Virus record (IMG/VR): IMGVR_UViG_3300011113_000784
Coordinates: 1 to 64,000 of that record
Strand: one strand, 5' to 3'
Length of the DNA: 64,000 bases
Origin: a virus
Shown: positions 540-58,614 of the stretch, in pieces
How positions within the stretch are numbered: position 1 is the stretch's first letter
Layout: each line of letters opens with the position of its first letter
Position numbers and translations under genes: made by a program
The notes under the pieces: model-generated
The model's input: only the letters and a program-made list of their open reading frames with translations
What the model was told of the DNA's origin: nothing
Databases searched by the model: none

Positions 540-543
540 TGAT

Positions 544-566
544 TTATCAAGTGAGGACACGCTTCT
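544..566 (-). repeat. Solitary degenerate CRISPR repeat handle AGAAGCGTGTCCTCACTTGATAA
   Basis: 17/23 identity to the 3' 23 nt of the array repeat; 3' stem arm weakened. Confidence 0.55.
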
Positions 567-592
567 ATTACAATTAGAGTGGCGTGTCCTCA
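552..592. promoter_or_regulatory. Intergenic inverted repeat (TGAGGACACGC / GCGTGTCCTCA) overlapping a CRISPR-repeat-like 23-mer
   Basis: 11-bp perfect arms at 552-562 and 582-592 between the two tube genes. Confidence 0.7.
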
Positions 593-648
593 TAATAGAT
601 TAAGGTTAGCTATATTAGAAATCTTATTGAGGATTATAAAATTTAATT

Positions 649-1514: not shown

Positions 1515-1536
1515 GTGTCATATGGGACACGCTTCT
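1515..1536 (-). repeat. Solitary CRISPR repeat handle AGAAGCGTGTCCCATATGACAC in a 5' UTR
   Basis: 19 of 22 nt match an array repeat with one gap; intact GTGTC/GACAC stem; 2 nt before the SD. Confidence 0.75.
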
Positions 1537-12379: not shown

Positions 12380-12428
12380 GGATTAATTTAGTATTTTTAT
12401 ACTATTTTGATTTAGTAGCAGGGTCATC

Positions 12429-12608
12429 GTGTCATCTGGGGACACATTTCTGAGTCATTGCTAGATTGCGGCTGCTTTTTCTGGCGACTCCAACATGATC
12501 GTGTCAACTGGGGACACATTTCTGAGTCATTGCTAGACTAATCTGTCCAGACTCACGACCAACATACGACTGTGTCAGCTGGGGACACAATTCTGAGTCA
12601 TTGCTAGA
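12429..12608 (-). CRISPR. CRISPR mini-array: 3 x 37-nt repeats, 2 spacers, type V-I (Cas12i)-like; no cas genes adjacent
   Basis: Repeats at 12429-12465, 12501-12537, 12572-12608 = TCTAGCAATGACTCAGAA(A/T)TGTGTCCCCAG(A/T/C)TGACAC on minus; unique spacers of 35 and 34 nt; 3' GTGTC/GACAC stem. Confidence 0.92.
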
Positions 12609-21172: not shown

Positions 21173-21982
21173 ATGAGATTTGTTGAATGGGCTGGCAAAT
21201 CACCTGATGTCGTTTTTGGTTTTGATAAAAGTATTCCATTGAAAAAAGAACTTCGTTACAGCGAAGAACCAATGGAGCCTTTACAGATTGAAACAACTTT
21301 GGATGAAATTGTTAATCTCGGAAAAATTGGAACAAAAGATCCAGTGAAAGATTTTGGTTCAATGGTAACTTATGGAGATCCAAATCAAGTCGGATCTATT
21401 CAAATCAAGTTTAGTCCATTTGGTTCTTGCCGTGCAACAATCATGCGAAGAATTAGTGACCTTGAAGGAGAGCCAACATGGATCACAAGATATTCTGTTC
21501 CAGTTATTAATGATTATCAACATGCATCTGAGGAAGATATCGCAGTTGAAAAAATGCTTGCTGTTAGAGTTCATGAAATAGCAGACTATCTTGACAAAAC
21601 AACATTAGAATCTCCTAATGCCAAATATGAAAGATTACAAGAACTAGTTGTAATGATTGCCGCTAACATGAAACTTAAACATCCAAAAGTCATGAATTTC
21701 CAAGGTGTAATGAAACAAGACGAAAATACATATATCATTTATTTTTCATATAACGGTTATGGAATTGAAGCTCCCGGTCAAAGGAAGGTAAATCAATTCA
21801 ATGTTTATGTTGAATTTGTAAAACAGAAGGGATTAATAAGATCATGGGGAGCAGAATATTCTGCACCTCATTTGCTGTATAACTACGAGCCTCAATCGCC
21901 TGAATGGGATGAGTATTTCTCTCCTGATCAAAACAAGAATGAGATCGTAACAGTTCTTGAAAACATTTTCAAGACTTATTGA
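21173..21982 (+). CDS. Hypothetical protein
   Basis: SD AAGGAG, N-terminus MRFVEW, 269 aa. Confidence 0.75.
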   Translation: MRFVEWAGKSPDVVFGFDKSIPLKKELRYSEEPMEPLQIETTLDEIVNLGKIGTKDPVKDFGSMVTYGDPNQVGSIQIKFSPFGSCRATIMRRISDLEGEPTWITRYSVPVINDYQHASEEDIAVEKMLAVRVHEIADYLDKTTLESPNAKYERLQELVVMIAANMKLKHPKVMNFQGVMKQDENTYIIYFSYNGYGIEAPGQRKVNQFNVYVEFVKQKGLIRSWGAEYSAPHLLYNYEPQSPEWDEYFSPDQNKNEIVTVLENIFKTY

Positions 21983-21983
21983 T

Positions 21984-22006
21984 GTGTCAGCTGGGGACAC
22001 ATTTAC
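21984..22006 (-). repeat. Solitary CRISPR repeat handle between convergent genes
   Basis: GTAAATGTGTCCCCAGCTGACAC, 21/23 to the array consensus. Confidence 0.88.
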
Positions 22007-22332
22007 TGATCAAGTTCTAGCAACTTGATATAACATTCTCCAAAGACTTCAATTTCTCCCATAAGGGCTTGAAATTCTTTTTGGGTATCGTTGATGAAAT
22101 CAAGTTCTCCCATCACACGCTTGGTTTCACTTTTAGAAAACTTGATAGCAGCTTTCAATCCATCATTCTTCAGGACTTTCATAACTTCAGCATAAGGTTT
22201 GTCCTTAGCAGCAAAGTGATAATATGAAAGTATAGCATCACCTTCTTTTGCCTTAGCTTTGGCAGCGATGTCGGCTGCGCCTTTACGGCGGTTGATAAGA
22301 AATTCCAAGGGATCGTCTGATTGTGGTTTCAT
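22003..22332 (-). CDS. Hypothetical protein
   Basis: 109-aa ORF whose stop overlaps the solitary repeat. Confidence 0.7.
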   Translation of the reverse strand: MKPQSDDPLEFLINRRKGAADIAAKAKAKEGDAILSYYHFAAKDKPYAEVMKVLKNDGLKAAIKFSKSETKRVMGELDFINDTQKEFQALMGEIEVFGECYIKLLELDQ

Positions 22333-22370
22333 AATTTTATATATTGCTGATAAATATTTTAGAGGTGAAA

Positions 22371-22742
22371 ATGAAATCTTTTTTAGAATTTATTTTTGAA
22401 AATAATTTTTATGAAACTTATCCAAAAGAATTATCTTCTGAAGATATAATTAAATATATTTCTAAACATCATAAAGAAAATTTACATCAAGATTATATTG
22501 ATTATTTGAATACATTTAAAAAGTTTGTTTTAAAAGATATTGATTTAGATAAAATTGAAACAAATTTACCAGCTTTGGATAAATCAAAAGTTGAAGAATA
22601 TAAAAAAATGAACTTCAATCAAGCTCCGCCAATTGTAGTAGCAGAAAAATATATTTTAGATGGATACCACAGAACAAATGTAGCAAAATTTTTAGGATTG
22701 AAAACCATAAAAGGATATGTTGGCATTAATAACATTGATTAA
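22371..22742 (+). CDS. ParB/Srx-like domain protein with capsid-targeting-like N-terminus
   Basis: MKSFLEFIFE; PPIVV..ILDGYHR. Confidence 0.7.
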   Translation: MKSFLEFIFENNFYETYPKELSSEDIIKYISKHHKENLHQDYIDYLNTFKKFVLKDIDLDKIETNLPALDKSKVEEYKKMNFNQAPPIVVAEKYILDGYHRTNVAKFLGLKTIKGYVGINNID

Positions 22743-22747
22743 TAATT

Positions 22748-23476
22748 TTAATTAATGTTAAATTTATTAAATCTTTCATTATAAATTTTTTTTATATCAT
22801 CTACATTGTAATCTTTATACTTTTCACATTCTGTCAAACTTATTATTTCTTTCTTTAAATCTTCTGGCAATTTTTGAATCCATTCGCTGCAAAAGCACCA
22901 AATTGGATCAATTTGTTTTGCTCTTATTTGCAGCATAATTCTTCTTATATTTTTATAAAAATTATCATATGTGAAATTATCTCCAAGAGTATCTTTAAGT
23001 GATTCTATTGTTTTGTCTAAAGCAGATGATATAATTTTATCATCAAGCTTTCTTGTAATAGTTTTTGTGACCATTTTGGTTTCTGCCATCTTTTTTCGCC
23101 AGACAAAATAGCGTTTTTCTGCTTTTTCTCCGATCAAAATGCTTGGACCAATGATCGGATTTACAGATTCCAAAAGTTTAATAATTTCCATTTGCGCTTT
23201 TATAAAAATGAAATACTCTGCTGGTGAAGTAAAAACACTTCTTTTGTCTTTGACATATTTTAATAAAAATTTATATGCAGATTGATTTTTTACAGGTTTT
23301 AAATCATTGAATTTTGTGTGAACATAATCTGGGAAATAATGATATTCACAATTGAGATAATATATCAGCAAATGATATGCAAATATCATATCTTCATCGC
23401 CAGAAAGTTTGAGAAGTTGGTCGGTTGAAACTTTATAAACCTCACGCATTTTTACCCTAGTATTAATCGAGGTCAT
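22748..23476 (-). CDS. Hypothetical protein
   Basis: 242-aa ORF diverging from the putative origin. Confidence 0.7.
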   Translation of the reverse strand: MTSINTRVKMREVYKVSTDQLLKLSGDEDMIFAYHLLIYYLNCEYHYFPDYVHTKFNDLKPVKNQSAYKFLLKYVKDKRSVFTSPAEYFIFIKAQMEIIKLLESVNPIIGPSILIGEKAEKRYFVWRKKMAETKMVTKTITRKLDDKIISSALDKTIESLKDTLGDNFTYDNFYKNIRRIMLQIRAKQIDPIWCFCSEWIQKLPEDLKKEIISLTECEKYKDYNVDDIKKIYNERFNKFNIN

Positions 23477-43619: not shown

Positions 43620-43642
43620 AGTAATGTGTGCCTAGATCATAC
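43620..43642 (+). repeat. Solitary CRISPR repeat handle AGTAATGTGTGCCTAGATCATAC
   Basis: 18/23 to the repeat at 12429; compensatory C-G to G-C pair plus a G-U wobble keep the 5-bp stem. Confidence 0.65.
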
Positions 43643-48304: not shown

Positions 48305-50380
48305 ATGGTTACTTTGAGCCAATTTGTAGATAAGAGCAAGTTAGAACAATTTAATAAATTAAATGAAGTGATTGGTTTTGAGGAGTACCTTAACAGGTGC
48401 TATGCTAATCCAAAACTTGTCAGAAATTCACATCAAAGAATTTATGACATGATTGTCTCGCAAGGCACATCTGAAATTGAAAAATATCGCAAGAAGGTGA
48501 CAGTTTATAACTTCTTTGAAAAGCATGAACAAATTAAAGTGTTCGGCATCGAAGAGCAACTTGAATCACTTGTTGCTCACTATAAGGGCGCTGCTGGTAG
48601 CTATGGACCAGAAAAGCGCATTCTTCTTCTCTGCGGTCCTGTAGGATCTGCAAAGTCTACAATCGTTCGTCTCATCAAGCGCAGCATGGAAGATTATTCT
48701 CAAACTGATGCTGGCACATGGTTTACCTATCGCTGGATTAATCTTCCTACTGGTGGCGATGGTATTTACACATCTGACACTTGTGAATGCCCAATGAATG
48801 AAGAGCCTTTAAAGCTTCTTCCATTTGATGTTCGCAAGAAGATTCTTGATGAACTTAATGCTATTCACAAAGAGCAAGCTGACGCATCCCAGCGCACAAC
48901 GCTCTACTCACTTGATGTTAAAGGCGAAATTAATCCTAAGTGCAAGTTCTTCTACGACAAGCTTCTTGAAAAGTATAACGGTGATTGGTCACAAGTTATT
49001 TCTAATCACATTGAAGTAGTTCGTAAAACTTACAATGAAGCCAAGCGTGTCGGTATTGCTTCTTTCCAACCAAAAGATGAGAAGAATCAAGATAGCACTG
49101 AATTGACTGGCGATATTAACTTTGCGTTGCTTCCAACATTTGGTAGCGATTCTGATCCAAGGTGTTTTAACTTTGATGGTGAGTTTGAAGTTGCCAATCG
49201 TGGCATCATTGAATTCATCGAAATGTTAAAGCTTGAAGTTGCATTCCTTTACGATCTCTTGGGTGCTTCACAAGAGCAATCTATTAAGCCCAAAAAGTAT
49301 TCTCAAATTTCAATCGATGAGTCGATCATCGGGCATACAAACATGCCTGAATATGAAAAGTTAAAGAATAACCAGTTCATGGAAGCTCTCAAGGACCGTA
49401 CTGTTCGTATTGAGATTCCTTATCTCCTTGAATGGAGCAAAGAACTCAAAGTTCTTGAGCAAGATTATAACTCCGATAAGATTAAGCAGCATATTGCTCC
49501 TCATACTCTTGAAATTGCTGCTTTGTTTGCTGTCCTTACCAGACTTGAGGACGATAAGGACAACAAGATCACTATTACGGAGAAGGCTGATCTTTATGAT
49601 GGCAAGATGCTTCCCGGTTGGACTGTAGATAGAGTTAAGGAACTACGAGACAAGAACCCAGCCGAAGGCATGGTCGGGCTTTCTGCTCGTTATGTTCAAG
49701 ACAAGGTTTCTTCTACTTTGTCTAGCCGACATGATTATATTAATCCATTCATGGTCCTTAATGCTCTTAAGAGCGGTCTTGATAACCACTCGTTGATTAC
49801 AAACAAGGATCTTGTTCGCAAGTATCAGAACTGCATTACTTTGGCTACAAAGAAGCTAGATGATATTCTCAAGAATGAGGTTCAAAAAGCCTTGGTTGGT
49901 GACGAAGAAGCTATCGTGAGGTTGTGTGCTAACTATATCGATAACCTCATGGCTTATATCAACAAGGCAAAGATCCTTAATAAGATTACTGGCAGGGAAG
50001 AAACTGCTGATGAAAAGTTGATGCGATCAATTGAATCTAAGATTGATGTGCCAGAATCAACCTGTGATGACTTCCGTAGAATGATTGCAGCTTTCATCGG
50101 TGACCTTGCGGTTAAGGGCAAGACTTTTCGATGGGATAGCAATCCCCTTCTTAAGAGAGCTTTGGAATCCAAGTTGTTTGAAGATACAAAGGATCATATT
50201 AAGCTAAGTGCTTTTTCTTCTGGCGCAAGTACAGTTGATCCTGATGTTCAGAAGAAAATTGATGCTGTAAAGCAGCGTTTGGTTGATAAATACGGTTATA
50301 ACGATCAGTCTGCCACAGATGTTCTAGATTATGTTTCTAGCATCTTTGCCAGAGGCGATCTTGCAGACGATAACGACTAA
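48305..50380 (+). CDS. prkA: PrkA/YeaG AAA+ serine kinase
   Basis: KRILLLCGPVGSAKST, PKDEKNQDSTELTGDI, SDSDPR-F-FDGE..ANRG..EF-EMLKL. Confidence 0.95.
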   Translation: MVTLSQFVDKSKLEQFNKLNEVIGFEEYLNRCYANPKLVRNSHQRIYDMIVSQGTSEIEKYRKKVTVYNFFEKHEQIKVFGIEEQLESLVAHYKGAAGSYGPEKRILLLCGPVGSAKSTIVRLIKRSMEDYSQTDAGTWFTYRWINLPTGGDGIYTSDTCECPMNEEPLKLLPFDVRKKILDELNAIHKEQADASQRTTLYSLDVKGEINPKCKFFYDKLLEKYNGDWSQVISNHIEVVRKTYNEAKRVGIASFQPKDEKNQDSTELTGDINFALLPTFGSDSDPRCFNFDGEFEVANRGIIEFIEMLKLEVAFLYDLLGASQEQSIKPKKYSQISIDESIIGHTNMPEYEKLKNNQFMEALKDRTVRIEIPYLLEWSKELKVLEQDYNSDKIKQHIAPHTLEIAALFAVLTRLEDDKDNKITITEKADLYDGKMLPGWTVDRVKELRDKNPAEGMVGLSARYVQDKVSSTLSSRHDYINPFMVLNALKSGLDNHSLITNKDLVRKYQNCITLATKKLDDILKNEVQKALVGDEEAIVRLCANYIDNLMAYINKAKILNKITGREETADEKLMRSIESKIDVPESTCDDFRRMIAAFIGDLAVKGKTFRWDSNPLLKRALESKLFEDTKDHIKLSAFSSGASTVDPDVQKKIDAVKQRLVDKYGYNDQSATDVLDYVSSIFARGDLADDND

Positions 50381-50395
50381 TATGAGGACTAACAA

Positions 50396-51589
50396 ATGCC
50401 TCGCCGTATTGATTCTGACCATAAAGACTTCAGAGATGTAGTCAGTGGCAGAATTAGAAAAAATCTAAAAAAGTTTATCAAGAGTGGCGAAATATTTCGC
50501 CACCGTGGTAAAAATGGCAAAGTATCAATAAAGATTCCTGCAATTGATATCCCTCACTTTCTTCACGGCAAGAACCCTAATGGGGTAGGTCGTGGAGAAG
50601 GACAAGAAGGAGATACTGTTGGCAAGGACAAGGGGCAAGGTCAAGGACAAGGAAACGGCGCTGGTCAGGATGAAAGCGAAGGCGTAATTGTTCAGCTAGA
50701 TATGGAGGACATCCTTCACTTCATGAAGGATGAATTGATGCTTCCTAATCTCAAACCTAAGCAACAAGCCAACCTTGAAGATGTAAAAATTAAGTATAAT
50801 AATATCTCTCTAGTTGGTCCAGAATCACTTAGGCATACTCGTCGCACAATGTTAACTGCGATGAAGCGCCTTTGCGGTACTGGCGAAATCAATAATTTAT
50901 ATGAAATTCCCGGCATTAAAGATAAAGTCAAAATGATCAATCCGATTAATTCGGATAAGAGATATCGTCAATATAAAGAGATTAGATTTCCTTCCAGCAA
51001 TGCTGTTGTTATTTTTGCTCGTGATGCCAGTGGATCAATGGATGATCGTAAAGTGGCAGTTGTTTCTGATATGGCTTATTGGATTGATGTTTATATTAGG
51101 AATTTCTATGAACGAGTTGAGAGGCTTTATGTTTGGCACGATGTAGCTGCCCATGAAGTTGATGCAAAAGATTTTTATCGAATCAGAAATGGTGGTGGCA
51201 CTACTTGTTCTACTGCTTTAGAATTAGTTGCCAAACAATTTGAAAACAGATTTCCTCCTAAAAATTGGAATATTTATTTCTTTTATTTCACTGATGGTGA
51301 AAATTACGATAATGACAACGATGTTTTTACGACTTTGTTAAAGAAAGAGTTTCCTCAAAATATTGTTAATCTTGTTTCTATAACTCAAATTGGTGCTTAT
51401 TCTTACAAAAACAGTGTTGCTGAGGTAGTTGAAAAAGAAATTGTTGAAGGTGGCTTAGATGATAATGTAATTGTTACAGAAATTCCATTTGATGCAATTA
51501 ACAATGAAGAAAAAAGAAATGAAGCTATATTAAAAGCAATAAAAGATATATTGGGCAACCCGTTTAAAAGCGCCAATGAGGTTTTCTAA
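50396..51589 (+). CDS. yeaH: YeaH/YhbH (DUF444) VWA-like protein
   Basis: LPNLKPK, SNAVVIFARDASGSM, GGT..S, NIYFFYFTDGEN. Confidence 0.9.
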   Translation: MPRRIDSDHKDFRDVVSGRIRKNLKKFIKSGEIFRHRGKNGKVSIKIPAIDIPHFLHGKNPNGVGRGEGQEGDTVGKDKGQGQGQGNGAGQDESEGVIVQLDMEDILHFMKDELMLPNLKPKQQANLEDVKIKYNNISLVGPESLRHTRRTMLTAMKRLCGTGEINNLYEIPGIKDKVKMINPINSDKRYRQYKEIRFPSSNAVVIFARDASGSMDDRKVAVVSDMAYWIDVYIRNFYERVERLYVWHDVAAHEVDAKDFYRIRNGGGTTCSTALELVAKQFENRFPPKNWNIYFFYFTDGENYDNDNDVFTTLLKKEFPQNIVNLVSITQIGAYSYKNSVAEVVEKEIVEGGLDDNVIVTEIPFDAINNEEKRNEAILKAIKDILGNPFKSANEVF

Positions 51590-53184
51590 TGTCAGACAAA
51601 TTCTTATTTGGTTCGCCTGTTCTTTTCGGATCTGCTACTACTCCCGGCGTACCTATTCCTGAAGAACTCAACAAACATATTCCAACTATTTTTCAAGCTT
51701 GTAAAGATTTTGGACTAGATTTTTATCCAACAATTGTCCAGATGCTTTCTCATGACGAAATGAGTGAAGTTGCAAGTTATGGTGGATTTGCATCGAGATA
51801 TCCACATTGGAAGTTTGGTGCTGAATATGAAGAGATGCAAAGAGGTTATCTTCACGGAAATCATAGAATATATGAAATGGTGGTAAATTGTAATCCGGCT
51901 TATCTATATTGCCTGAATTCGAATACATTGCTTGACAATATTACAGTAATTGCTCATGCGCTTGGTCATGTTCATTTCTTTAAGAATAATATTCATTTTT
52001 CTAGAACAAATACAAATGCACATAACGAACTGGCAAATAACGGTTCTAATGTAAGAAAGTATATGTCTCGTTATGGTAGAGAAACTGTAACAGAATTTAT
52101 GGATCATTTGTTCCGAATTGAAACTCTTGTTGATCCAATGAATATCTGGAAAGAAAGAAAAGCTAAAGAAGTTGTCATTAGGGACAAAAAAGACTATGTA
52201 TTTCCTAAAAGGATTAAGACAAATCAAGATTATATGGAAAACTGGATTAATACTCCAGAGTTTATAGAAGCTCAAAATAAGAAAATTGAAGAACAAGAGA
52301 TCATGAGAGATCTCAATGCATTCGCTTCTCCTGAATCAGATATATTTGGATATATCAAAGACAATGCGCCATTCAAACCTTGGCAGCGTGATATTGCTGA
52401 GATTTTGTACAATGAAGCTATTTATTTTAGTCCACAAGGCAAAACCAAGGTAACTAATGAAGGTTTTGCTAGTTATTGCGATTATCATCTTATCGCTAAA
52501 CAAGGATACGCTTCTTTAGGACAAGATAATGAGGATGGGGGTATTGTTGAGTACTCTATTCATAAAGCTGGTGTATTGGGCGGCAAATATAGCATGAATC
52601 CATACAAGCTTGGATTTATGTTATTAATGGATATCGAAGAAAGATGGAACAAGGGTAGATTTGGATCAGATTATGCCAATTGCACTAATCCAATTGAAAG
52701 GGAAAATTGGGATCTTAATCTTGGACTTGGTAAGGAAAAAGTTTTTGAGGTTTGCAAGAACTACGATGATTATCAATTCATAAATGAATTTTTTACCAAG
52801 GAGTTCTGTGAAAAGAATGAGTTCTTTGAGTACAAGCGTTATCCGACTGGTGAAATAAAGTTGGAAAGCAGAGATTACAAAAAGATCAAAAGAGAGTTGT
52901 TGCGTAAGCATATTAATCGTGGTTTGCCAAATATTAAGCTTGTTGAGCCTAGATTTAAAGGCAACATGTTTTTCATGGAGCATAAGTGGCAAGGTGTAGA
53001 ACTTTATAAACCTTATGCTTACGAAGTGATGAAGTCTATTTGTTATCTTGTGAGACAACCTGTTGTATTGCAAACCAAGAATCATAATGGGGATGAAGCA
53101 TTTTATTATTGCCAAGATTTGAACGGGGATTATGCTGCGGCTGATCCTAAATCTTTAACAAGAGATCAATTGAATAAACTATGA
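51589..53184 (+). CDS. spoVR: SpoVR/YcgB family protein
   Basis: RYPHWKFG, IYEMVVN-NP, AHALGHVHFFKNN, TKVTNEGFASY, NPYKLG. Confidence 0.93.
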   Translation: MSDKFLFGSPVLFGSATTPGVPIPEELNKHIPTIFQACKDFGLDFYPTIVQMLSHDEMSEVASYGGFASRYPHWKFGAEYEEMQRGYLHGNHRIYEMVVNCNPAYLYCLNSNTLLDNITVIAHALGHVHFFKNNIHFSRTNTNAHNELANNGSNVRKYMSRYGRETVTEFMDHLFRIETLVDPMNIWKERKAKEVVIRDKKDYVFPKRIKTNQDYMENWINTPEFIEAQNKKIEEQEIMRDLNAFASPESDIFGYIKDNAPFKPWQRDIAEILYNEAIYFSPQGKTKVTNEGFASYCDYHLIAKQGYASLGQDNEDGGIVEYSIHKAGVLGGKYSMNPYKLGFMLLMDIEERWNKGRFGSDYANCTNPIERENWDLNLGLGKEKVFEVCKNYDDYQFINEFFTKEFCEKNEFFEYKRYPTGEIKLESRDYKKIKRELLRKHINRGLPNIKLVEPRFKGNMFFMEHKWQGVELYKPYAYEVMKSICYLVRQPVVLQTKNHNGDEAFYYCQDLNGDYAAADPKSLTRDQLNKL

Positions 53185-55800: not shown

Positions 55801-56077
55801 CTTCATAGTCATCAAAGTTACTTCCTTTAGAGAAGTCAACATTTGGTGTTCCAAGATCGCCAAAAGGTTTGTCAGTATTATAACCTTTTGCACGATATGC
55901 TTGGCTCTTTTTGCCTTGTAGTGGGAAGCTATAATGCTTTCCTTTAACGCCAGTATCTTCAGGGGCTTCTGGTTGGGGGAAAGCATAAGATTTCATGATA
56001 TCTTGAAGTTTTTTCTGAGAATCGCTAATTTCTAGATCTTTTTTATATTGCTCTAAAGTCTTAATTTTCTTTGCCAT
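55784..56077 (-). CDS. Hypothetical protein inserted between the dnaE halves
   Basis: SD GAGG; 97 aa. Confidence 0.65.
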   Translation of the reverse strand: MAKKIKTLEQYKKDLEISDSQKKLQDIMKSYAFPQPEAPEDTGVKGKHYSFPLQGKKSQAYRAKGYNTDKPFGDLGTPNVDFSKGSNFDDYEVSHLD

Positions 56078-56142
56078 GATTCACCTCTACTTTATTTAGA
56101 TTTTCACATTGATTTTTACCGCTAAATGCTTAAAATCATGGT

Positions 56143-58614
56143 ATGAATACCATATCTGTCGAAGATTTTAATAAAATTATCAACAATCAATTCAAGAAAT
56201 TTCCTTTTCATGATGATCCACGATATCAATTCAGGCTTAGATATGAGCTTTTAGAAATAGAAACACAAAATTGTTGTGATTATTTTATAGATTTGGTCAA
56301 ACAAAAGAAAAAATTTCTTAATGAAAACAATTTACTTGTCCCAGTGTTACTGGGAATTTGCAATGAATTCAATATTGATGAAATGCCCAAAACTAAAACA
56401 AATGAATTCCCCGATGTTGATATCGATTTCTTGGCAGATGTTCGTGATTATCTAAAAAACGAATATGCTCCCAATCAATATAAAGCTGAAAATACATGCT
56501 CTATTGGTACTTACGGCAGATATGCTTTAAAGAGCGCCATGATTGATATGGCAAGAATCTATGGATATGACCGACAAGAAGTTTTAAATATTACAACAAA
56601 TTTGAGAATGAAAGACGAAGATGGAGATGAATTGACATATGAAGAAGCTTTAGAAATGTATCCTGAGTTGAAATCTTATATGGACAAGTATCCAGAATTA
56701 GCATTAGCTGTTCAAAAGCTTATTCACAGAGTACGCAATACCGGCAAACATGCTGGCGGTGTAATTGTTGCCAAGGACGAGATTAATAAGTTTGTTCCAT
56801 TGATGAAAACCACAGGTGGTGACCAGCTTGTATCACAGTTTGTAGAAGGTTTGGCTACACAAGAATTAGGACCAATAGGTCTGGTAAAATTCGACTTGCT
56901 TGTTGTGTCTGCGTTAGAGCAGACGGGTCACGCAGTAAAAATGATAAAGGATAGGCATAATATCAAATTAATTTCAGGTGACAATCACGATTGGGACAAC
57001 ACAGATTATTTGAATGACCCCAAGGCTATTGCGAATGCCAACGAAGCAGATTTGATTGGCATATTCCAATATGATAGCAATGGGATTAGAGAAGTTGTAA
57101 AAGCTTCTGGTATTGATAGTTTTGATGACTTGGTTGCGATTGTCAGTTTGTATCGTCCCGGTCCATTGAATGCAGAAATGGATCAAGTGTTCATCAGAAG
57201 AAAAACAGGACAAGAAGAATATACAATCAATCCCGTGCTTGAACCTGTTCTTAAATCAACTTATGGAATTATTATCTACCAAGAACAAGTAATGAGGATT
57301 CTGAATGTTGTTGGCAAAATCCCTCTGAAAGATTGCGAAACAATCAGAAAGGCTATTTCTAAAAAGAAGATATCAAGTTTCATCAAGTATAAAGAACAAT
57401 TCATTGAAAACGGTGTTAATGTTCTTGGAATTTCCAGAGAAGAAGTCGCTGATATATTTCAGAATATTGAATTCTTCTCAGCTTATGGTTTTAACTTAAG
57501 TCATGCCACCGCTTATACTTACATCAGCAGCCGACAATTATATTTGAAAACTTATTATCCATTAGAATTCTTTACTGCTTTGTTGATGTTGGAAGGTAGT
57601 GAAGAGAAGAAGCGCATTTATATTACAGATGCTCAAAATCATGGAATTGAAGTTCGGGCAGTTGACCTAAACACAAGCAAAGCCAATTTCTCGATACAAG
57701 ATAATGCCATTTACATTGGTTTTGGCAATATTAAAGGTATCGGAATGGATACTGCCAATAAGATTGTAGCCTTGCAACCGTTTAAAGACATAGATGATTT
57801 TCTTCGTCGGTTTGGCACAGACTCTAGTGTTTTGAAAGCACTGATTCCGTTGAAGGTCTTTGGAGAAGACACAAAGAGAGCTTACAACTATTGGCAAGCT
57901 TTTATGGCTAAGAACAAAAAGGTTGTTGACAAAAATAAGAGATCTAATAAGTCTTATCTCGATCTGAAGAAGACAGTGTTATATCTGTTGCCTGAAAAGT
58001 ATAGGAATTTGGAATTGTCTGAAGAATTGTTTTCAATTCTTAAATCAATTAATGATTCTGCTGATGTGAACAAGCTGCATAAGAAATGGGTGAGGATGAA
58101 TTCTAAAGAAGAAGCAAAGATTGAAATTTCTTATGAAGACTTTGATGATGATGACATTGTCATCGAAGATAAAGAGTTGCTGCTTGAATTAAATGATATT
58201 TGTGTGGCTGAGAGAAAGTATTATGGGTTTCAGTTTACTTGCAGACTAAGAATGCTAAAGATGTACAGTGAGAACTGTACATTTGACCGTGTTATTAATT
58301 CTCATGCCTTGGGTGCGACTAAGCACATGGTTCAAATTGAAATATTGGATGTCAATAAAAGATATTCAAAATCTGGTAAGCCCTATTGCCAGTTAGTTGC
58401 TATGGATAGTAATTTCAGAATTGAGAGGATTAATGTGTGGGAAGATGATTACGCTATATTCAAACATTTGCTTGAGGTTAACAAATGTTTGTCAATGCAG
58501 GTCAAACCACCTTCTAATGGATTTTCTACTTATAGCCTAAATTCTCCTCCTAAAAACAGGAGATATTTACTTCCATCATCAGAGATGGATTTCAGAATTG
58601 TTTTAATGGACTAG
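56143..58614 (+). CDS. dnaE: DNA polymerase III alpha catalytic part
   Basis: PDVDIDF, GKHAGGV, GLVKFDLL, GIFQ, LYRPGP, TYGIIIYQEQVM, YGFNLSHATAY, IKGIG, OB-like end. Confidence 0.93.
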   Translation: MNTISVEDFNKIINNQFKKFPFHDDPRYQFRLRYELLEIETQNCCDYFIDLVKQKKKFLNENNLLVPVLLGICNEFNIDEMPKTKTNEFPDVDIDFLADVRDYLKNEYAPNQYKAENTCSIGTYGRYALKSAMIDMARIYGYDRQEVLNITTNLRMKDEDGDELTYEEALEMYPELKSYMDKYPELALAVQKLIHRVRNTGKHAGGVIVAKDEINKFVPLMKTTGGDQLVSQFVEGLATQELGPIGLVKFDLLVVSALEQTGHAVKMIKDRHNIKLISGDNHDWDNTDYLNDPKAIANANEADLIGIFQYDSNGIREVVKASGIDSFDDLVAIVSLYRPGPLNAEMDQVFIRRKTGQEEYTINPVLEPVLKSTYGIIIYQEQVMRILNVVGKIPLKDCETIRKAISKKKISSFIKYKEQFIENGVNVLGISREEVADIFQNIEFFSAYGFNLSHATAYTYISSRQLYLKTYYPLEFFTALLMLEGSEEKKRIYITDAQNHGIEVRAVDLNTSKANFSIQDNAIYIGFGNIKGIGMDTANKIVALQPFKDIDDFLRRFGTDSSVLKALIPLKVFGEDTKRAYNYWQAFMAKNKKVVDKNKRSNKSYLDLKKTVLYLLPEKYRNLELSEELFSILKSINDSADVNKLHKKWVRMNSKEEAKIEISYEDFDDDDIVIEDKELLLELNDICVAERKYYGFQFTCRLRMLKMYSENCTFDRVINSHALGATKHMVQIEILDVNKRYSKSGKPYCQLVAMDSNFRIERINVWEDDYAIFKHLLEVNKCLSMQVKPPSNGFSTYSLNSPPKNRRYLLPSSEMDFRIVLMD

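What the first reader, a model, noticed from the sequence alone, without database searches (positions are those of the whole stretch)
21984..22006. Near-perfect solitary repeat filling the gap between convergent genes
Seen: AAATGTGTCCCCAGCTGACAC fills the 20-nt gap, overlapping the stop of the minus gene and ending 1 nt from the stop of the plus gene, 9.4 kb from the array. The spacer position (ATCAATAAGTCTTGAAAATG..) is antisense to the plus gene mRNA. Known: phage solitary repeat units can act as RNA anti-CRISPRs. Alternatively Cas processing may define the mRNA 3' end in place of a terminator.
Basis: partly seen in the sequence, partly recalled or inferred. Interest (0 to 1): 0.78.

Follow-up and report, generated by a model that had tools for sequence, protein, structure and literature searches.

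The report
Lone Cas12i-type handle between convergent genes
A giant-phage fragment carries, wedged between two tail-to-tail genes, one recently inserted copy of the RNA hairpin that a Cas12i-type CRISPR enzyme grips; it matches the phage's own small CRISPR array and is one of several scattered copies, so it probably docks that enzyme on a phage transcript, but no test of this exists yet.

Summary
21984-22004(-) matches the 3' part of the repeats of a 3-repeat CRISPR array at 12426-12608(-) at 21 of 21 bases (0 expected by chance). It fills the 20-nt gap between two convergent stop codons.

The array repeat ends in a 23-nt handle of the same length, same 6-nt tail (AGAAAU) and same hairpin design as the published Cas12i2 handle. 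No cas gene lies on the 111-kb contig, which is about 23% of the genome.

Four distinct relatives lack the unit. There the two genes overlap by 7 nt, so the window has a 27-nt insertion: a 20-nt hairpin plus a copy of those 7 nt. Independent river and soil assemblies also carry it.

It belongs to a family of at least 6 solitary handles in this phage. None was found in 453 kb of array-less relatives.

This copy lacks the two tail bases needed for Cas12i2 processing, so cutting to define the mRNA 3' end is unlikely.

Best reading (about 0.4): a Cas12i docking site in the 3' UTR that loads a pseudo-guide with no PAM at home, acting as a Racr-like competitor. In relatives the same sequence follows TTG with a perfect seed.

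A neutral, array-derived scar remains a strong rival. The scan noted a similar lone-handle insertion in another phage.

The parts
21984..22006 (-). Solitary 23-nt Cas12i-type handle (GUAAAU tail, then 5-bp stem GUGUC/GACAC with 7-nt loop CCCAGCU). Positions 21984-22004 are 21/21 identical to the array repeat consensus.
   Evidence: Covariance-model hit of 31 bits, E 3.5e-5. Hairpin of -7.1 kcal/mol, z -3.1.
21983..22002 (.). 20-nt inserted core, which is exactly the intergenic gap. With the duplicated 7 nt it makes the 27-nt insertion that relatives lack. The placement is ambiguous by up to 7-8 nt.
   Evidence: Alignment A2 against L015, L016, L021 and L019; raw junctions.
21976..21982 (+). 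Left copy of the duplicated 7 nt (TTATTGA). It carries the stop codon of the 269-aa gene.
   Evidence: In relatives a single TTATTGA holds both stop codons.
22003..22009 (+). Right copy of the duplicated 7 nt (TTACTGA; minus strand TCAGTAA). It carries the stop codon of the 109-aa gene and supplies the handle tail.
21952..21983 (-). Pseudo-spacer: the 32 nt that follow the handle, antisense to the 3' end of the 269-aa gene. It contains its own hairpin (CUUGAAAA..UUUUCAAG).
22003..22332 (-). 109-aa gene of unknown function. Its mRNA would carry the handle directly after the stop codon.
   Evidence: Homologues on 6 viral contigs at 55-91% identity. No Pfam or PHROG family.
21173..21982 (+). 269-aa convergent gene of unknown function.
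   Evidence: Homologues on 6 viral contigs at 74-83% identity. No family.
12426..12608 (-). Orphan CRISPR mini-array: three 37-nt repeats and two spacers of about 34 nt, lying downstream of the ribonucleotide reductase gene. It is the source of the handle sequence.
   Evidence: A sister phage contig has 11 repeats at the same place and shares the oldest spacer.
1515..1536 (-). Other solitary handle (AGAAGC tail, intact stem), 13 nt before a start codon.
   Evidence: An orthologous copy is present in sister phage G001.
37097..37119 (-). Other solitary handle with a compensatory stem pair (A-U in place of C-G), 5 nt before a start codon.
43620..43642 (+). Other solitary handle with a compensatory stem pair (G-C in place of C-G). 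It is intergenic and antisense to the two flanking genes.
544..566 (-). Weak handle-like copy (18.9 bits). It is one arm of a larger 10-bp hairpin inside an insertion of about 100 nt that only G000 and G001 share.

Best explanation
Shown: this is a copy of the 3' handle of the phage's own type V-I-like (Cas12i-type) CRISPR repeat. It was placed between two convergent genes by a lineage-specific 27-nt insertion. The insertion duplicated the 7 nt in which the two genes formerly overlapped, so both proteins keep their ends.

Inferred: the unit is transcribed on the minus strand as the 3' UTR and read-through of the 109-aa gene. The cognate Cas12i, encoded off this contig or by the host, binds the hairpin. 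It probably does not cut, because tail positions -23 and -22 are G and U instead of A and G. The bound enzyme takes the following phage sequence as a pseudo-guide. At home that sequence is preceded by the handle, not by a PAM, so the complex is harmless to the phage. The net effect would be that of a competitor or sponge, or of a regulator of Cas12i, like a Racr or a non-targeting crRNA. A side effect is that the same complex could recognise relatives that lack the insertion.
For: Identity with the array:
- 21/21 identity to the array repeat, with 0 expected by chance.

Cas12i-type handle:
- The array handle AGAAAUGUGUCCCCAGNUGACAC has the same 23-nt length and the same AGAAAU tail as the Cas12i2 handle AGAAAUCCGUCUUUCAUUGACGG (PMC7567891 supplement; text).
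- 13 of 23 positions are identical, and the two differing stem pairs co-vary.
- Type V-I systems, and arrays without cas genes, are known in huge phages (PMC7162821).

Recent insertion:
- A 27-nt gap in four distinct relatives.
- The insertion is present in independent assemblies, one of them about 2% diverged.

Family context:
- Degenerate handle matches number 1 at 4 mismatches and 4 at 5 mismatches, against 0.01 and 0.06 expected.
- A covariance model gives 6 solitary hits of 28-33 bits in 111 kb. It gives none above 15.8 bits in 453 kb of array-less relatives.
- The sister phage that has the array keeps two orthologous solitary copies.
- Three stem pairs changed on both sides in diverged copies.
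- All other strong copies keep A-23 and G-22.
- Most lie in the sense orientation in UTRs.

Self-safety:
- The only full match of the pseudo-guide in the contig is its own PAM-less site.

Precedent:
- Non-targeting crRNAs and solitary repeats inhibit by competing for Cas proteins, and a racr can share a transcript with a small protein gene (PMC10651486).
Against: - No cas12i or other cas gene was found on 111 kb or on the sister contig.
- The host is unknown. The repeat is absent from 185,579 prokaryote species genomes.
- This copy is perfect and young, so it carries no signal of selection of its own.
- Its tail differs at the two positions most important for Cas12i2 processing, and that paper reports that unprocessed guides work less well.
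- The pseudo-guide folds on itself.
- There is no dedicated promoter. The nearest minus-strand promoter-like site is about 490 nt upstream, and promoter-like sites are not enriched in the region.
- The rows of the structure alignment were chosen for intact stems, so its 100% pairing is partly circular.
- A sponge for an enzyme that the phage's own array also needs would be costly.
Confidence: 0.4

Rival explanations
1. Neutral scar. A piece of the array repeat was copied into the gene junction by illegitimate or short-homology recombination, by template switching, or by repair of a staggered break. It persists only because the duplication kept both genes intact, and it has no present function.
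For: - The copy is perfect and restricted to one shallow lineage; all four distinct relatives lack it.
- The 15 nt upstream already resemble the 5' half of the repeat at 10 of 15 positions. Most of these matches are ancestral, since they are also present in L015. This fits homology-assisted copying.
- The tail lacks the processing bases.
- The 7-nt duplication equals the main overhang length that Cas12i2 leaves on DNA (PMC7567891), as expected for fill-in repair of such a cut.
Against: - Older family members keep the stem through compensatory changes and keep the AG of the tail.
- Such copies occur only in the lineage that has the array.
- The insertion has survived about 2% divergence across river and soil samples.
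Confidence: 0.3
2. Stand-alone guide unit against relatives. The handle turns the adjacent conserved gene end into a guide without any spacer-acquisition machinery. Cas12i loaded with it cuts co-infecting relatives that have the uninserted allele, while the carrier is protected because the handle replaced the PAM.
For: - In every empty allele the homologous sequence is preceded by TTG, which fits the TTN PAM.
- The first 10 nt match perfectly in G002 (22 of 24 overall), L015 (21 of 24) and L016-18/G003 (20 of 24).
- Cas12i2 tolerates single mismatches at positions 9-20 but not at positions 1-8.
- Phage arrays that target rival phages are documented in huge phages.
Against: - TTN precedes 12.7% of all positions in this genome, so the PAM alone is weak evidence.
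- The tail bases needed for 5' processing are missing.
- The guide has an internal hairpin.
- The other solitary handles do not show seed matches to their empty alleles.
- No closely related rival with an empty site was found.
Confidence: 0.13
3. A hairpin that works without any Cas protein. It would be a bidirectional 3' stabiliser or a weak terminator that separates two convergent transcripts which used to overlap.
For: - It forms a 7-8-bp stem on both strands right after both stop codons.
- The ancestral junction had no intergenic space at all.
Against: - No T-run follows the stem on either strand, and the terminator scan does not call it.
- This reading does not explain the exact identity to the CRISPR handle, the strand-specific AGAA tail of the family, or the restriction to array-bearing phages.
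Confidence: 0.1
4. Cas12i processing site that defines the 3' end of the 109-aa mRNA.
For: Cas12i2 cuts pre-crRNA just 5' of a 23-nt handle without metal ions. The handle sits directly behind the stop codon.
Against: - A-23 is essential and G-22 is important for cutting by Cas12i2. Here they are G and U.
- The canonical cut would fall between the A and the G of the last sense codon CAG, giving an mRNA without a stop codon.
Confidence: 0.07

Closest known systems
Viral solitary repeat units (SRUs) and RNA anti-CRISPRs (Racrs), Camara-Wilpert et al. 2023 (PMC10651486)
   Same: A single CRISPR-repeat copy on a phage, lying in a gap between genes, not next to cas genes, and keeping the Cas-binding hairpin. 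Racrs work by sequestering Cas proteins, and a racr can be co-transcribed with a small protein gene.
   Different: - It matches the phage's own array, not a known host array.
- It covers only the 3' 21-23 of 37 nt, which SRUFinder would class as a partial match.
- It has no promoter directly upstream.
- It is of type V-I.
- It is one of several dispersed copies.
- It is demonstrably a recent insertion.
Cas12i2 crRNA handle and pre-crRNA processing site (Huang et al. 2020, PMC7567891)
   Same: 23 nt long, with a 6-nt tail AGAAAU in the array copies, a 5-bp stem and a 7-nt loop ending ..U GAC... 13 of 23 positions are identical and two stem pairs co-vary.
   Different: The solitary copy has G and U at positions -23 and -22. 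The loop and two stem pairs differ. No cognate protein is known.
Phage crRNA-like anti-defence RNAs (Cracr/crlRNA), Liu et al., bioRxiv 10.1101/2024.10.29.618823
   Same: A phage-borne repeat followed by a short guide-like stretch that loads a Cas12-type enzyme and redirects it.
   Different: Those guides pair partially with cas or toxin promoters. Here the pseudo-guide is the neighbouring phage gene, and no promoter target was found in the available DNA.
Huge-phage CRISPR systems, including type V-I, and arrays lacking cas genes (Al-Shayeb et al. 2020, PMC7162821)
   Same: A large phage with a compact array, no adaptation genes nearby, and spacers that differ between related phages.
   Different: That paper does not describe dispersed single handles. 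Here even the effector gene is missing from the 111 kb that is held.

Membership tests
Type V-I (Cas12i) CRISPR repeat | The repeat ends in a 23-nt handle: a 6-nt tail AGAAAU followed by a hairpin that abuts the spacer. | tested here: met
   The array repeats were compared with the Cas12i2 pre-crRNA. Length and tail are the same, 13 of 23 positions are identical, and two stem pairs co-vary.
Type V-I (Cas12i) CRISPR repeat | A-23 and G-22, which are needed for processing, are present in the solitary copy. | tested here: not met
   The solitary copy reads GUAAAU.
Type V-I (Cas12i) CRISPR repeat | A cas12i gene lies beside the array. | tested here: not met
   No cas family was found among the large ORFs of the 111-kb contig. 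The contig is about 23% of the genome, so a gene elsewhere is not excluded.
Type V-I (Cas12i) CRISPR repeat | A TTN PAM lies next to the protospacers of the array spacers. | tested here: inconclusive
   No protospacer was found for the two spacers scanned in the viral collection.
Viral SRU / Racr | Solitary: no other full or partial repeat within 100 bp. | tested here: met
   The nearest other hit is 9.4 kb away.
Viral SRU / Racr | At least 90% coverage of the repeat (an SRUFinder full match). | tested here: not met
   21-23 of 37 nt match. With the upstream coding sequence the figure is 31 of 36 with one 1-nt indel.
Viral SRU / Racr | A promoter within 250 bp upstream. | tested here: not met
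   The nearest minus-strand consensus site is at 22520-22492. Such sites are not enriched in the region. Co-transcription with the 109-aa gene is assumed.
Viral SRU / Racr | Matches the CRISPR-Cas subtype of the host and inhibits it. | not testable with these tools
   The host is unknown, and the repeat is absent from the species genomes.
Intrinsic terminator | A G+C-rich stem followed by a T-run. | tested here: not met
   The terminator scan does not call this site. The sequence after the stem is ATCAATAAG on the minus strand and ATTTACTGATC on the plus strand.
CRISPR mini-array | A second full or partial repeat closes the spacer. | tested here: not met
   There is no further model hit near 21900-21983, even at E up to 10.
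crRNA-like regulatory RNA (CreA/Cracr type) | The guide pairs partially with a PAM-flanked promoter of a cas or toxin gene. | tested here: inconclusive
   Within the contig the best other matches are 17 of 24 and lack TTN. The cas locus is not available.

The most novel reading that the evidence does not exclude
Giant phages that carry a Cas12i system without spacer-acquisition genes make new guides by inserting a bare 23-nt handle next to conserved genes. The handle replaces the PAM, so the carrier is immune. Close relatives that lack the insertion keep TTG plus a matching seed and are cut. The 7-bp duplication, equal to the main Cas12i2 overhang, may be the repair scar of the very cut that created the unit. 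The dispersed handle family would then be an adaptation-free, allele-specific weapon, or a drive, among related phages.
Probability: 0.12. Interest if true: 0.85.

Novelty: new variant of a known kind. Interest (0 to 1): 0.6.

Why it matters
Solitary repeats on phages are known as decoys against host CRISPR systems. This one mimics the phage's own array, is of the rarely studied Cas12i type, and is caught shortly after insertion with both the filled and the empty alleles at hand. It also belongs to a family whose older members keep the hairpin through compensatory changes.

That gives a clean test bed for three questions:
- how such units arise;
- whether Cas12-type enzymes are used on messenger RNAs or as allele-specific weapons between related phages;
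- whether one handle plus its neighbouring sequence is enough to make a working guide.

Tried and rejected
Searches for a cas gene and for the repeat elsewhere:
- Pfam and PHROG scans of all large ORFs on the contig found no cas gene.
- Two scans of the prokaryote species genomes for the repeat found nothing.
- A scan of metagenome contigs gave only two chance hits, inside an iron-sulphur protein gene.
- A looser handle pattern in viral contigs gave 12 single hits that look like chance, plus the sister array.
- An Rfam scan of the window at gathering scores gave no match.

Searches for targets and function:
- No protospacers were found for the array spacers.
- The related contigs G002, G003 and G004 have no CRISPR array; the repeat-like signals there were protein-coding repeats.
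- The ESM Atlas gave nothing usable for the two flanking proteins.

Expression:
- No RNA holder is listed among the public runs, so expression and RNA ends could not be examined.
- Parts of the X7 and X8 contigs do not cover the junction, and nothing was drawn from that.

Literature:
- The Cas12i discovery paper (PMC11258546) is not held.
- Cas12i3 papers print no repeat sequence in their main text.
- A literal search for handle strings found no paper.

Origin of the insertion:
- I tried to place a TTN PAM at the distance from the 7-nt duplication expected from the Cas12i2 cut sites (24/25 and 31/32). By hand, the nearest TTN sites are off by 3 or more nt, so the cut-scar idea stays a speculation.

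Full report
**Setting**

The window is the first 64 kb of a 110,967-bp IMG/VR viral contig that CheckV rates as 23% complete. That makes it a fragment of a very large phage. G+C is about 34%. Genes near the finding include a ribonucleotide reductase, SbcC/SbcD-like proteins, helicases and a family A polymerase.

**The observation**

The minus strand of 21984-22004 reads AAATGTGTCCCCAGCTGACAC. A search allowing 3 mismatches finds just four sites in the window. Three are in a tandem array at 12426-12608 and the fourth is this one. None of 100 shuffles gave a match.

The plus gene ends with TGA at 21980-21982 and the minus gene ends with TAA at 22005-22003. Contigs from an independent river metagenome (no difference) and from a 2025 soil metagenome (18 substitutions in 909 nt, no gap) bridge the site. 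The unit is real DNA and has persisted through about 2% divergence.

**The array and its type**

On the minus strand the array has three 37-nt repeats and two spacers of about 34 nt. A sister phage contig (G001) has 11 repeats at the same syntenic place. It shares the oldest spacer and carries different newer spacers on the reductase side. This is a living CRISPR array read on the minus strand. Spacer G+C is 43-61%, against 34% for the phage, and I found no targets.

The last 23 nt of the repeat are AGAAAUGUGUCCCCAGNUGACAC. The published Cas12i2 pre-crRNA is cut to leave the 23-nt handle AGAAAUCCGUCUUUCAUUGACGG. The comparison shows:
- the same length;
- an identical 6-nt tail;
- 13 of 23 identical positions;
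- two differing stem pairs that co-vary.

This supports a type V-I assignment by the repeat alone. No cas gene is present on the 111 kb or on the sister contig. The repeat is absent from 185,579 prokaryote species genomes. Type V-I systems, and arrays lacking cas genes, have been reported in huge phages (PMC7162821).

**A recent insertion**

Both flanking genes have homologues on other viral contigs. In four distinct relatives (L015/L022, L016-18/L020, L021 and L019/G002) the two genes overlap by 7 nt, within ...ACTTATTGATCAAG.... The window carries 27 extra nucleotides (alignment A2).

The simplest description has three parts:
- TTATTGA at 21976-21982;
- a 20-nt core at 21983-22002;
- a second, slightly changed copy, TTACTGA, at 22003-22009.

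Each gene thereby keeps its own stop codon and its exact C-terminus. The borders are ambiguous by 7-8 nt.

There is an alternative description. A 26-nt piece of the repeat plus one T was copied in, and the left 'duplicate' (TCAG-T-AA on the minus strand) is the repeat's own TCAGAA. In favour of copying assisted by homology, the 15 nt upstream match the 5' half of the repeat at 10 of 15 positions, and most of these matches are ancestral.

Cas12i2 leaves mainly 7-nt overhangs on DNA, which equals the length of the duplication. This is only a lead. I could not place a PAM at the matching distance.

**One of a family**

I tested this in four ways.

1. A Hamming scan of the whole contig with the 23-nt handle gave 1 hit at 4 mismatches, 4 at 5 and 2 at 6. 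Simulated genomes gave 0.01, 0.06 and 0.54, and the reversed pattern gave nothing.

2. A covariance model built from the array repeats and the copies with intact stems scores six solitary sites at 28-33 bits: 1515-, 21984-, 37097- and 43620+ in the window, and 67655+ and 79912+ beyond it. Site 544- scores 18.9 bits.

3. The same model finds nothing above 15.8 bits (E about 1) in 453 kb of related contigs that have no array. It does find two orthologous solitary copies in the sister phage that has the array.

4. Diverged copies keep the 5-bp stem, with three cells changed on both sides. All except 21984 keep A-23 and G-22.

There is a caveat: I chose the rows for intact stems. Two intragenic hits (56652 and 101397) have broken stems and are probably unrelated.

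Copies 1515, 37097 and 79912 lie 5-22 nt before start codons in the sense orientation. Copy 67655 lies between same-strand genes. Copy 43620 is antisense. Copies 1515, 37097 and 544 are also insertions relative to G002 and G003. Copy 21984 is the only one sitting in a 3' UTR.

**What this copy can and cannot do**

On the minus strand the transcript of the 109-aa gene would run straight into the handle. In context the hairpin is stable (7 bp, -7.1 kcal/mol, z -3.1). It is flanked by two further hairpins, one in each coding end. No T-run follows on either strand and the terminator scan does not call it, so a classical terminator is unlikely.

In Cas12i2, A-23 is essential and G-22 and A-21 are important for pre-crRNA cutting, while the upstream sequence is not. 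Here the tail is GUAAAU, because these bases double as the last sense codon and the stop codon. A canonical cut would fall inside that last sense codon and remove the stop codon. I therefore rate 'processing defines the 3' end' as unlikely, and binding without cutting as the more likely behaviour. This is inference by analogy to a different orthologue.

**The pseudo-guide**

After the handle come 32 nt that are antisense to the end of the 269-aa gene. In the contig their only good match is their own site, which is preceded by the handle and not by TTN. In every empty allele the homologous stretch is preceded by TTG. The first 10 nt are identical in G002 (22 of 24), L015 (21 of 24) and L016-18/G003 (20 of 24). 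L021 has a mismatch at position 3.

Cas12i2 tolerates single mismatches at positions 9-20 but not at 1-8. So an enzyme loaded with this RNA would be harmless at home and potentially active on relatives without the insertion.

Three cautions apply:
- TTN precedes 12.7% of positions in this genome.
- The guide has an internal hairpin.
- The other handles do not show matching seeds in their empty alleles.

The scan noted the same reading for a Cas12m handle in another phage (e1-6095080). That is an unchecked note and is not evidence.

**Verdict**

Identity and origin are settled: this is an array-derived Cas12i-type handle that was recently inserted. Function is not settled. My estimates are:
- 0.40 for a Cas12i docking site that yields an inert complex at home (a Racr-like competitor or regulator);
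- 0.30 for a neutral scar;
- 0.13 for a guide against relatives;
- 0.10 for a hairpin that works without Cas;
- 0.07 for a processing-defined 3' end.

The finding is a new variant of the known class of viral solitary repeat units (PMC10651486; related crRNA-like RNAs in bioRxiv 10.1101/2024.10.29.618823).

Noticed in passing
window 22340-22765: This 426-nt stretch, which holds the 132-aa plus-strand ORF 22344-22742, is replaced by about 29 unrelated nucleotides in contigs of a soil run (X4) and a drinking-water run (X8). It is therefore a strain-specific insertion or deletion just upstream of the 109-aa gene.
   Followed up: no
L008 5344-5437 (sister phage array): One repeat of the 11-repeat array has an internal 11-nt deletion between two AATG words, and one spacer is only about 18-20 nt long. 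Both are signs of decay or recombination inside the array.
   Followed up: no
window 1515-1536 versus L048 6860-6882: The orthologous solitary handles of the two array-bearing phages differ at about 7 of 23 positions (tail and loop) but keep the stem, while the flanks are about 94% identical. This means either fast turnover or overwriting from array repeats.
   Followed up: partly
window 540-600: The weak handle at 544-566 is one arm of a 10-bp inverted repeat (GAGGACACGC ... GCGTGTCCTC) inside an insertion of about 100 nt that only G000 and G001 share. It may be a different kind of hairpin element.
   Followed up: partly
G000 67655-67677 and 79912-79934 (beyond the window; L005 3655-3677 and 15912-15934): Two more solitary handles score 33 and 28 bits. 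The first has a compensatory A-U closing pair. Both lie in the sense orientation between or before small plus-strand genes.
   Followed up: partly
L019 / G002 56050-57529: In this relative about 1.5 kb of other DNA sits between the 269-aa gene and the 109-aa gene homologues, so the junction is a recurrent site of rearrangement.
   Followed up: no
window 48305-53184: This is a PrkA-like kinase, a 397-aa ORF and a SpoVR-like protein in a row. It resembles a bacterial stress and sporulation gene trio, which is unusual cargo for a phage.
   Followed up: no
window 12467-12571: The array spacers (and those of the sister phage) have 43-61% G+C, against 34% for the phage. They therefore come from foreign DNA of higher G+C, and no target was found.
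   Followed up: partly
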